Assembly (NCBI RefSeq): GCF_003334385.1
Contig: NZ_QOWN01000006.1
DNA length: 64,000 nucleotides
Reading direction: 5' to 3' (one strand)
Origin: Escherichia coli
GTDB taxonomy: Bacteria; Pseudomonadota; Gammaproteobacteria; Enterobacterales; Enterobacteriaceae
The notes below the pieces were generated by a model, which made no database searches, was not told where the DNA came from, and saw only the letters and a list, made by a program, of their open reading frames with translations. A program made the translations under genes and the position numbers. Below, one piece after another: positions 47,086 to 49,905 of the stretch (the first letter of the stretch is position 1; every line of letters begins with the position of its first letter).

Positions 47086-49905
47086 TTGCTTATAACTCAT
47101 TATATGTCAACATGGGTCACTATAACGGAAGCAGTTGAGATCACTACCAAAGCCATAAAACAAAAAATTACTCCTAGCGATATTTATCGTCATGCCTTGA
47201 GTGGCAACATCCTACTATCGGTCTATTTCCAGTCTCCTGTGATACTTAAGAAGATACAAACTTTTAATGGAAAAATAAAATTCAGGCAGTTTGTGGGAGA
47301 CCTACTTGATAAACTATGCATGCTTGACAGGGACGGTTTTATTTATGGTCAAAATTTAAGACTCTGTACAGAAGCTAGATATATTTGTCCTGTGCAACAA
47401 ATTATAGATACCCCCCTGTTACGCAAACTCAACCAGTTTCGTACGTTTGTTCGTAATGTCCGCCCGGGTGATGAACTGGATGTCCCGGCACAAGTTAGTG
47501 AAAAAAATTTAACCCCGCCGCCGGGTAACAGCAGTGGCAACCTTGAGCAACAGATAGCCAGTACTTCACAGCTAATTGGATCTCTGCTCGCCGAAGATAT
47601 GAACAGCGAGCAAGCGGCAAACATAGCACGTGGATGGGCCTCTTCTCAGGCTTCAGGGGTAATGACAGACTGGTTAAGCCGCTTCGGTACCGCAAGAATC
47701 ACGCTGGGCGTGGATGAAGATTTCAGCCTGAAGAACTCCCGTGACGGCAACCCTCGAAAATGGCGATTCGATGCAACAAACAGTGAACTATGTGCCGAAC
47801 GTCACGAATGCTGAAATCACGCTGGCAGCCTCGAAGGACCCGGTGATTGCCGACAATAACGATCTCACGACACTAACAGCACCGTCGCTGATACAGAGGG
47901 CAATGCAATAGCCAACACTGAGGTAACATTTACTCTACCGGAAGATGTGAAGGCGAACTTCACGCTGAGCGATGGCGACAAAGCGGTTACTGATGCCGAT
48001 GGCAAAGCGAAAGTCACGCTGAAAGGTACAAAAGCAGGCGCTCATACCGTGACAGCATCGATGGTTGGCGGTAAGAGTGAGCAGTTGGTGGTGAACTTTA
48101 CTGCGGATACGCTCACTACGCAGGTTAATCTTAACGTTACCGAGGACAATTTCATCGCCAATAACATTGGAATGACCAGGCTACAGGCAACAGTGACTGA
48201 TGGAAACGGCAACCCAGTAGAAGGTATAAAAGTTAATTTCCGTGGAACCTCCGTCACGCTAAGCAGCACCAGCGTTGAAACGGATGATCAGGTTTTCGCT
48301 GAAATTCTTGTGACAAGCACCGAGGTCGGACTAAAAACAGTTTCAGCCTCTCTGGCAGATAAACCTACTGAAGTCATCTCGCGATTACTGAATGCCAAGG
48401 TAGATGTTAATTCTGCGACGATTACCAGTCAGGAGATACCTGAAGGTCAGGTCATGGTCGCACAAGACATAGCAGTTAAAGCTCACGTTAACGACCAGTT
48501 TGGCAACCCGGTGACGCATCAACCCGCGACATTCAGTGCAGCGCCATCCTCGCAAATGATCATCAGCCAGAATACGGTCTCTACTAATACGCAGGGAGTA
48601 GCCGAGGTCACCATGACGCCTGAAAGAAACGGCTCGTATACTGTAAAAGCATCCCTAGCGAATGGAGCTTCACTTGAGAAACAACTGGAGGCTATTGATG
48701 AAAAACTGACACTCACGTCCAGTCCGCTTATCGGTGTCAATGCTCCTAAAGGCGCTACTCTGACGGCAATGCTAACCTCTGCAAATGGCACTCCAGTGGA
48801 GGGTCAGGTCATCAACTTTAGCGTAACGCTAGAAGGTGCGACGTTAAGTGGCGGAAAAGTGAGAACCAACTCTTCAGGTCAGGCTCCAGTCGTTCTGACC
48901 AGCAATAAAGTCGGTACATATACGGTGACTGCATCGTTCCATAACGGCGTCACAATACAGACACAGACAACCGTGAAGGTTACTGGCAACCCAAGCACCG
49001 CACATGTTGCTAGCTTTATCGCTGAACCGTCGACTATCGCCGCCACCAACAGTGATTTAAGTACCTTAAAGGCAACGGTTGAGGATGGCAGTGGTAACCT
49101 GATCGAAGGTCTCACTGTGTACTTCGCCTTAAAAAACGGCTCCACCACATTAACGTCATTAACAGCGGTGACCGATCAAAACGGAATCGCGACAACAAGC
49201 GTGAAAGGAGCGATAACGGGGAGCGTCACTGTAAGCACAGTCACAAGCGCAGGTGGAATGCAAACAGTAGATATATCGCTAGTGGCAGGCCCAGCAGACG
49301 CCTCGCAGTCCATCCTTAAGAACAACCAGTCATCACTGAAAGGGGACTTTACCGATAGTGCTGAGCTACATCTTGTTCTGCACGATATATCAGGCAATCC
49401 GATCAAAGTTTCTGAAGGGATGGAATTTGTGCAATCAGGTACAAACGTGCCCTATATGAAAATTAGCGCAATTGATTACACTCAAAATATCAACGGTGAT
49501 TACAAAGCTACTGTTACAGGAGACGGAGAGGGTATCGCAACGCTGATCCCCGTATTGAATGGTGTTCATCAGGCGGGCCTGAGTACCACGATAGAATTCA
49601 TTAGCGCGGAAACCAGACCAATGACGGGTACAGTGTCCGTGAATAGTGCAAACCTACCGACAGCTTCATTCCCTTCGCAGGGATTTACCGGGGCGTATTA
49701 TCAGTTGAATAATGACAACTTTGCACCAGGAAAAACGGCGGCTGATTATTCGTTTTCAAGCTCGGCCTCCTGGGTAGGCGTTGATGCTACTGGTAAAGTG
49801 ACATTCAAAAATGACGGTGATAGCAATACAGTAATAATCACAGCGCCCCCAAGATCCGGTGGTGCTATTTACCAAACAGTTCCTCCTGAATCGCGTTCGG
49901 TGTGA
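47086..49905 (+). pseudogene. yeeJ: Degraded inverse-autotransporter adhesin gene (YeeJ-like): N-terminal fragment 47086-47814 fused out of frame to a C-terminal Big-domain array (frame opens about 47732, one-base frameshift about 47880, continues to 49905)
   Basis: N-terminal fragment matches recalled YeeJ only from LRKLNQFRTF onward; C-terminal part is repetitive Big-domain-like sequence; expected TLTATVADTEG is split by a missing base (acagcaccgtcgc). Confidence 0.6.

What the first reader, a model, noticed from the sequence alone, without database searches (positions are those of the whole stretch)
47086..49905. Inverse-autotransporter adhesin gene degraded by three lesions
The N-terminal fragment matches an intimin/invasin-type protein only from about residue 110 (LRKLNQFRTF...). 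It is then joined, out of frame near 47735-47770, to a distal Big-domain region, and a further single-base deletion near 47880 splits TLTA|TVADTEG. The long C-terminal ORF (652 aa) still encodes repetitive Ig-like domains and a terminal lectin-like region, so a truncated secreted product is unlikely without the beta-barrel. This is gene decay adjacent to the island insertion.
Basis: partly seen in the sequence, partly recalled or inferred. Interest (0 to 1): 0.35.

Follow-up and report, generated by a model that had tools for sequence, protein, structure and literature searches.

The report
Known yeeJ relic beside yersiniabactin island
This is the dead remnant of the E. coli adhesin gene yeeJ next to the yersiniabactin pathogenicity island; the same wreck is present in about 2,000 of 5,426 complete E. 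coli genomes and was described in 2009, so it is ordinary.

Summary
The window is the E. coli asnT locus carrying the Yersinia high-pathogenicity island (HPI; ybtE, fyuA), followed by yeeL-like, shiA and amn. There are more lesions than three. A 312-bp in-frame loss removes one Ig repeat (48186-48215). A 9-bp in-frame loss lies at 47454. On the island side, the ORF fused to yeeJ has its own +1 frameshift in an A8 run. No signal peptide, no beta-barrel beyond its first ~60 residues and no lectin domain remain anywhere in the window.

The 5' lesion is not local decay. It is the right-border deletion that defines the common-type E. coli HPI: it runs from an ICE gene, across the conjugation module and attR, into yeeJ codon 74. 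Schubert et al. 2009 described it, and Martinez-Gil et al. 2017 noted truncated yeeJ at this site. The interval with all junctions is found in 2,037 of 5,426 complete genomes, 1,973 records at ≥99% identity. Verdict: real, non-functional, already known, low interest.

The parts
16237..16312 (+). asnT tRNA-Asn, the integration site and left end of the HPI
   Evidence: ARAGORN. K-12 homology runs to just past asnT, at window 16316, and then stops.
46413..47417 (+). Right-end remnant of the HPI downstream of fyuA. There is no attR direct repeat.
   Evidence: It aligns to the ICE-type HPI of strain 51008369SK1 (L003) up to 47417. The 17-24-nt asnT 3' end occurs in the window only at the four asn tRNA genes.
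47064..47417 (+). First ~118 codons of an ICE gene (hypothetical protein WP_000039781.1, 308 aa when intact). An extra A in the A8 run at 47069-47076 puts the native ATG at 47064 out of frame. An AAGGAG Shine-Dalgarno sequence lies at 47050-47055.
   Evidence: Alignment to L003 6265-7191. Strain EC67 (L009) has A7 and an open chimeric ORF from the native ATG. The intact protein has no NCBIfam match.
47418..47740 (+). yeeJ nt 219-550 (aa 74-184): the distal part of the LysM region, the linker and the first ~60 residues of the beta-barrel domain. It is fused in frame to the ICE ORF fragment and carries a 9-bp in-frame loss at 47454.
   Evidence: blastn 92.8% to K-12. tblastn aa 74-184. Pfam IAT_beta model positions 3-64 of 279 only, against 2-279 in K-12.
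47741..47880 (+). yeeJ aa 1415-1461, a Big_1 repeat fragment, joined out of frame. The junction at 47740|47741 deletes yeeJ nt 551-4242, which removes the barrel and roughly nine Ig-like repeats.
   Evidence: The barrel segment aa 185-520 has no hit in the window.
47880..47881 (+). Site of the 1-bp deletion (AA to A, not a slippery run) that splits TLTA|TVADTEG
   Evidence: Global alignment to K-12. The same deletion is present in strains 042, NMBU-W10C18 and EC67.
47881..49877 (+). The distal yeeJ passenger (K-12 aa 1462-~2229), open from 47860. It contains Big_1 domains, Invasin_D3 and Invasin_D4. One 312-bp (104-aa) Ig repeat is lost in frame at the 30-bp shared stretch 48186-48215.
   Evidence: Pfam. 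A 315-bp difference is seen against the long allele of strain 19KM1776.
49877..49878 (+). The 3' deletion junction. The last ~113 codons of yeeJ (the C-type lectin cap), its stop codon and the adjoining intergenic DNA are lost.
   Evidence: Three-way alignments with K-12 and with 19KM1776. There is no tblastn hit for the last 112-113 aa.
49878..50032 (+). What remains of the yeeJ-yeeL intergenic region. It supplies the fortuitous tail VPPESRSV* of the 652-aa ORF.
   Evidence: It aligns to K-12 from 111 nt after the yeeJ stop.

Best explanation
Window 47418-49877 is a non-functional relic of the inverse-autotransporter adhesin gene yeeJ. It forms the right flank of the common-type, immobilised Yersinia high-pathogenicity island (HPI) at asnT.

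Shown:
- One illegitimate deletion with about 1 bp of microhomology runs from codon ~118 of an ICE gene downstream of fyuA to yeeJ codon 74.
- That deletion removed the island's type IV secretion and mobilisation module, the attR repeat, the yeeJ promoter region and the YeeJ signal peptide.
- Four further changes in yeeJ are shared by HPI-positive genomes: a 3.69-kb out-of-frame internal deletion, a 1-bp deletion, the loss of one Ig repeat, and a 3' deletion of the lectin cap.
- The window carries two later changes of its own, +1 A in the ICE ORF and -9 bp in yeeJ. Other lineages carry other late changes.

Inferred:
- The lesion set arose once in the founder of the common-type HPI.
- It has since spread with the island by homologous recombination of the flanks, as Schubert et al. 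2009 proposed.
- It is now drifting neutrally.
- No surface adhesin can be made. Any translated fragment would lack a signal peptide and a barrel and would stay in the cytoplasm.
For: Locus identity:
- Gene order is ybtE-fyuA-remnant-GT9(yeeL)-shiA-amn. K-12 has asnT-yeeJ-yeeL-shiA-amn.

Breakpoints:
- They map against K-12 and against an intact long allele.

Domain content:
- IAT_beta covers model positions 3-64 of 279 here, against 2-279 in K-12.
- The distal ORF has Big_1, Invasin_D3 and Invasin_D4 but no Intimin_C.
- All NCBIfam inverse-autotransporter hits fall far below their cut-offs, for example 101.8 bits against 2400.
- YeeJ aa 1-73, the barrel segment aa 185-520 and the last 113 aa have no match in the whole window.

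Comparison with an ICE-type HPI:
- In strain 51008369SK1 the ICE ORF is intact (308 aa). It is followed by T4SS and Mob genes, an attR (CCAGTCAGAGGAGCCAAATTCT) and a structurally full-length yeeJ. In that genome's coordinates the junction-A deletion spans 27,095 bp.
- The window has no attR.

Population:
- The whole interval 46400-50100 is covered at ≥80% in 2,037 of 5,426 complete genomes, 1,973 records at ≥99% identity.
- Junction B is present in 2,058 genomes and junction E in 2,087.
- PGAP annotates the remnant as 'frameshifted; incomplete; missing N-terminus and C-terminus'.

Continuing decay:
- Strain NMBU-W10C18 has an extra nonsense codon at 48022 and an extra 1-bp deletion at 49753.
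- Strain EC67 keeps the A7 run and the 9 bp that the window has lost.

Literature:
- PMC2606025 reports a unique right-border deletion that loses the direct repeat and extends into the adjacent backbone in all common-type HPIs.
- PMC5595812 links truncated yeeJ to asnT and the HPI.
Against: - The order of the events (A, B, the 1-bp deletion, D, E) and whether some predate the arrival of the HPI could not be resolved. Per-genome lists were not available to cross-tabulate the junctions. Junction counts differ slightly (2,037 / 2,058 / 2,087), and the cause was not examined.
- Loss of function is inferred from domain content. No expression data were examined.
- The Ig-repeat loss at 48186-48215 could be ordinary repeat-number variation between alleles rather than a lesion.
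- The lectin fold of the deleted tail has only weak sequence support here (Pfam E = 0.008; invasin 1cwv E = 0.11). It otherwise rests on the published domain assignments.
Confidence: 0.93

Rival explanations
1. The apparent frameshift and deletions are assembly or sequencing artefacts in a long repetitive gene, and the real gene is intact.
For: Martinez-Gil et al. caution that frameshifts in repetitive autotransporter genes can be mis-assemblies, citing upaH. Junction D lies inside a 30-bp repeat shared by two Ig units.
Against: Identical sequence (100% over 3,701 bp) occurs in many independently finished genomes, and 1,973 records are ≥99% identical. Junctions A, B and E lie in unique sequence. 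The missing parts are absent from the entire 64-kb window.
Confidence: 0.01
2. The lesions accumulated locally and independently in this strain after the island inserted. This is ordinary stepwise decay.
For: Some changes are lineage-specific: the A8 run and the 9-bp loss in the window, and a nonsense codon and a 1-bp deletion in NMBU-W10C18. HPI-negative strains also carry independently broken yeeJ genes, for example EcPF15.
Against: The five main junctions are identical to the base in strains of very different backgrounds and in about 2,000 genomes. Schubert 2009 found the same border deletion in every common-type HPI of the ECOR collection.
Confidence: 0.04
3. The chimeric ORF (ICE N-terminus fused to YeeJ aa 74-184) or the 652-aa Ig-repeat ORF is expressed and has acquired a new role.
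For: The ICE-yeeJ fusion is in frame. A strong Shine-Dalgarno sequence precedes the native ATG at 47064. In strain EC67 the fusion ORF is open from that ATG (252 aa). RefSeq carries it as a protein, WP_001323489.1.
Against: In the window the native start is frameshifted. No signal peptide, complete domain or family-level match remains. The promoter-like scan finds fewer sites than the shuffles (5 against 7.2). Other lineages carry nonsense and frameshift changes in the long ORF. An in-frame fusion is expected by chance one time in three.
Confidence: 0.02

Closest known systems
yeeJ (b1978) of E. coli K-12 MG1655, an inverse autotransporter (type Ve) adhesin; Martinez-Gil et al. 2017, PMC5595812
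   Same: It occupies the same chromosomal position, between asnT and yeeL/shiA. The retained segments are 92-95% identical at the nucleotide level. The retained domains are of the same types: Big_1, Invasin_D3 and Invasin_D4.
   Different: It lacks the promoter region, aa 1-73 (the signal peptide and the start of LysM), aa 185-1414 (the barrel and roughly nine Ig repeats), one further Ig repeat and the last ~113 aa (the lectin cap). It is split by two frame changes.
Right-border deletion of the common-type E. coli HPI; Schubert et al. 2009, PMC2606025
   Same: The HPI sits at asnT, the right direct repeat is lost, and the deletion reaches into the adjacent backbone. The pattern is identical across many strains.
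   Different: Nothing of substance. This report adds base-level breakpoints and identifies the affected backbone gene as yeeJ.
ICE-type HPI (ECOR31 type), represented here by strain 51008369SK1
   Same: It has the same yersiniabactin core and the same sequence downstream of fyuA up to window 47417.
   Different: The ICE type keeps the 308-aa ORF, the T4SS and Mob genes, cargo genes, attR and a full-length yeeJ. The window has lost all of these.
Other broken yeeJ alleles in HPI-negative E. coli, for example strain EcPF15, and the ST410 premature stop (PMC10786849)
   Same: yeeJ is dispensable and is often a pseudogene.
   Different: These alleles have different, independent lesions. None has the island junction.

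Membership tests
Inverse autotransporter (type Ve; intimin/invasin/YeeJ), functional member | N-terminal Sec signal peptide | tested here: not met
   YeeJ aa 1-73 has no tblastn hit anywhere in the window. Homology starts at aa 74. The residues upstream come from an ICE gene.
Inverse autotransporter (type Ve; intimin/invasin/YeeJ), functional member | Complete IAT_beta barrel domain (PF11924) | tested here: not met
   Only model positions 3-64 of 279 are matched, E = 8e-7. K-12 matches 2-279, E = 1e-113. The barrel segment aa 185-520 has no hit in the window.
Inverse autotransporter (type Ve; intimin/invasin/YeeJ), functional member | Periplasmic LysM domain | tested here: inconclusive
   Pfam LysM is only marginal even in K-12 (aa 60-80, E = 0.31), and the window ORF gives no LysM hit. 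The retained part starts at aa 74, inside or after that stretch.
Inverse autotransporter (type Ve; intimin/invasin/YeeJ), functional member | Passenger of Ig-like (Big_1) repeats in one frame with the barrel | tested here: not met
   Big_1, Invasin_D3 and Invasin_D4 domains are present. They are separated from the barrel stub by an out-of-frame junction, a 1-bp deletion and stops at 47812-47814, 47857-47859 and 47909-47911.
Inverse autotransporter (type Ve; intimin/invasin/YeeJ), functional member | C-terminal C-type lectin-like cap (as in YeeJ, intimin and invasin) | tested here: not met
   The window ORF has no Intimin_C hit, against a weak hit in K-12. The last 112-113 aa of two intact alleles have no match in the window.
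yeeJ locus (orthology by position and sequence) | Located between asnT and yeeL/shiA, with high nucleotide identity to yeeJ | tested here: met
   92-95% identity in four collinear blocks, with the flanking yeeL, shiA and amn conserved.
Common-type (immobilised) E. coli HPI | Inserted at asnT | tested here: met
   asnT lies at 16237-16312 and is followed by the island integrase and the ybt genes.
Common-type (immobilised) E. coli HPI | Right direct repeat (attR) lost | tested here: met
   No copy of the asnT 3' end lies outside the four tRNA genes. attR is present in the ICE-type comparator.
Common-type (immobilised) E. coli HPI | The deletion extends into the adjacent backbone and the conjugative module is absent | tested here: met
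   K-12 L001 positions 4630-5213 are absent. The T4SS and Mob genes of L003/L006 are absent. This matches PMC2606025.

The most novel reading that the evidence does not exclude
The in-frame fusion of an ICE protein N-terminus to YeeJ residues 74-184 is carried by about 2,000 E. coli genomes. It could be translated from the strong native ribosome-binding site, either directly in A7 strains or by slippage on the A8 run in strains like this one. The resulting small cytoplasmic protein might have a new function linked to the island.
Probability: 0.02. Interest if true: 0.3.

Novelty: already known. Interest (0 to 1): 0.08.

Why it matters
It matters little on its own. It is a useful annotation point. 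In HPI-positive E. coli the RefSeq proteins named 'inverse autotransporter beta domain-containing protein' and 'Ig-like domain-containing protein' at this site are fragments of one dead gene, and the first of them is an ICE-yeeJ chimera. The junction at 47417|47418 is a clean base-level marker of the single ancestral event that immobilised the island. HPI-positive strains should be scored as lacking the YeeJ adhesin.

Tried and rejected
- Sequencing artefact: rejected because the sequence is identical in many independent finished genomes.
- Phase variation at the 1-bp deletion: rejected because the site is AA to A inside CAGCAAC, not a homopolymer tract.
- Relocation of the missing parts elsewhere in the window: tblastn found nothing.
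- Looking for an intact allele that shares the window's 3' end: the closest intact allele (19KM1776, 2,870 aa) matches up to ...SGGAIYQT and then continues into a 112-aa tail ending CYKNI. The window therefore has a deletion, not an alternative C-terminus.
- Testing constraint by synonymous and non-synonymous counts between the window and NMBU-W10C18 gave 5 against 6, plus one nonsense codon and one frameshift. The counts are too few, and recombination confounds them, so this was not used as evidence beyond showing further lesions.
- A PDB sequence search of the K-12 tail gave only a marginal invasin hit (E = 0.11).
- A promoter and terminator scan of the remnant gave nothing above shuffled expectation.
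- Cross-tabulating junctions A, B and E per genome was not possible, because only up to 60 rows are listed per search.

Full report
**Context.** The window is the E. coli asnT region. asnT lies at 16237-16312. It is followed by about 31 kb of the Yersinia high-pathogenicity island (HPI), ending with ybtE (42683-44260) and fyuA (44391-46412). After the interval in question come a family-9 glycosyltransferase (the yeeL homologue, 50033-51148, minus strand), shiA and amn. In K-12 the order is asnT - yeeJ - yeeL - shiA - amn. The finding therefore sits exactly where yeeJ should be.

**Checking the observation.** blastn and tblastn against K-12 yeeJ (7,020 nt, 2,339 aa) give four collinear blocks:
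- 47418-47740 matches yeeJ nt 219-550 (aa 74-184).
- 47741-48215 matches nt 4243-4718.
- 48186-49862 matches nt 5001-6677.
- 49882 onward matches DNA starting 111 nt after the yeeJ stop.

- The match starts only at LRKLNQFRTF.
- yeeJ nt 550 is joined to nt 4243 at 47740|47741. The net loss is 3,692 bp, so the downstream part is out of frame.
- One base is missing at 47881 (CAGC-ACC against CAGCAAC), which splits TLTA|TVADTEG.

The two frame changes cancel, so the distal passenger returns to the frame of the first ORF. Stops at 47812-47814 and 47857-47859 in that frame still lie between them, and the frame that carries aa 1415-1461 ends at its own stop at 47909-47911.

- A 312-bp in-frame loss of one Ig repeat has occurred through a 30-bp stretch shared by two repeats (48186-48215). 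The difference is 315 bp against a second reference.
- A 9-bp in-frame loss lies at 47454.
- A 3' deletion is present. Against the closest intact allele (strain 19KM1776, 2,870 aa) the window is collinear up to ...SGGAIYQT (49877) and then jumps to DNA 417 nt past the stop. The ORF's last residues, VPPESRSV*, are translated intergenic DNA.
- The deleted ~113 residues are the C-type lectin cap. It is published for YeeJ and has a weak Pfam Intimin_C hit at K-12 aa 2246-2320.
- The window ORF has Big_1, Invasin_D3 and Invasin_D4 but no Intimin_C. The tail has no tblastn match anywhere in the 64 kb.

**What is left of the protein.** The N-terminal stub carries only IAT_beta model positions 3-64 of 279, against the full 2-279 in K-12. 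The signal peptide (aa 1-73) and the barrel (aa 185-520) have no match in the window. All NCBIfam inverse-autotransporter hits are far below their cut-offs. No surface-exposed product can be made.

**Where the 5' end came from.** The first ~110 residues of the mechanical ORF 47086-47814 are not yeeJ. They are the start of a 308-aa hypothetical gene of the ICE-type HPI (WP_000039781.1). That gene is intact in strain 51008369SK1.

In that strain the gene is followed by an AlpA-like regulator, a VirB-type T4SS, a coupling protein, MobC, a restriction-modification cargo, an attR copy (CCAGTCAGAGGAGCCAAATTCT), the K-12-like asnT-yeeJ spacer and a structurally full-length yeeJ. Integration by itself therefore does not damage yeeJ.

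In the window the ICE gene stops at its codon ~118 and is joined, in frame and with about 1 bp of microhomology, to yeeJ codon 74. In the comparator's coordinates the missing stretch is 27,095 bp. The window has no attR.

[quoted passage not shown] Schubert et al. 2009 described it for every common-type HPI (PMC2606025). Martinez-Gil et al. 2017 linked truncated yeeJ to asnT and the HPI (PMC5595812).

**Population.**
- The whole interval 46400-50100 is covered at ≥80% in 2,037 of 5,426 complete E. coli genomes, 1,973 records at ≥99% identity.
- Junction B is in 2,058 genomes and junction E in 2,087.
- PGAP annotates the site as a 236-aa 'inverse autotransporter beta domain-containing protein' plus a pseudogene flagged 'frameshifted; incomplete; missing N-terminus and C-terminus'.
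- Strain EC67 shares all five junctions but keeps an A7 run (so the ICE-yeeJ chimera is open from the native ATG) and the 9 bp. The window's A8 run (47069-47076) and its 9-bp loss are therefore later changes.
- Strain NMBU-W10C18 has an additional nonsense codon (48022) and a 1-bp deletion (49753).
- HPI-negative strains can carry quite different broken yeeJ genes.

Together this fits one ancestral wreck that travels with the island and continues to drift.

**Mechanism.** The junctions, the loss of every element needed for export, and the identity of the pattern across genomes are shown. Three things are inferred: that the lesions arose once, that they spread with the island by flank recombination, and that the remnant is inert.

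**Comparison and novelty.** By position and sequence this is yeeJ. By function it fails every testable defining feature of an inverse autotransporter. It meets all tested features of the common-type immobilised HPI border. The phenomenon is published, and only the base-level breakpoints are added here. Novelty: already known. Interest: low.

**Residual novel reading.** The in-frame ICE-YeeJ chimera might be expressed. Nothing supports this beyond an open frame and a good ribosome-binding site, and the window's own copy is frameshifted at the start. I put the probability at about 2%.

Noticed in passing
window 16474-17389 (junction 16596|16597): The HPI integrase gene carries a 347-bp internal, frame-shifting deletion relative to the intact 1,263-nt gene of E. 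coli 042. Most HPI-positive genomes have the intact length; among the listed hits only three matched the deleted form in one piece (human strain 4/2-1 and two bovine strains). Together with the lost attR, the island here is disabled for excision at both ends.
   Followed up: partly
window 50033-51148 (minus strand): The yeeL homologue (glycosyltransferase family 9, with weak heptosyltransferase similarity) is an uninterrupted ORF here and is annotated as a protein in HPI-positive genomes. In K-12, yeeL is annotated as a pseudogene, although the two are 95.9% identical over 1,114 nt without gaps.
   Followed up: partly
window 47069-47076: The A-run at the start of the ICE-derived ORF is polymorphic among HPI-positive genomes. 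It is A8 here and in strain 042, and A7 in EC67 and in the ICE-type strain. This switches the chimeric ORF on or off its native start codon.
   Followed up: partly
window 46704-46707: About 220 bp present downstream of fyuA in the ICE-type HPI of strain 51008369SK1 (L003 5685-5907) are absent from the window. The direction of the change (deletion here or insertion there) was not determined.
   Followed up: no
window 55786-55861, 57610-57685, 60019-60094: Three more tRNA-Asn genes lie downstream, as in the K-12 asnW/asnU/asnV arrangement. They are alternative HPI attachment sites and none is occupied here.
   Followed up: no
L006 (NZ_CP029973.1 2811000-2860000): The ICE-type HPI of dog isolate 51008369SK1 carries a type I restriction-modification system with an HNH endonuclease and an AAA ATPase as cargo between the Mob genes and attR. 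Several of its transfer genes (virB10, the coupling protein) and fyuA are frameshifted, and its yeeJ has an internal stop.
   Followed up: no
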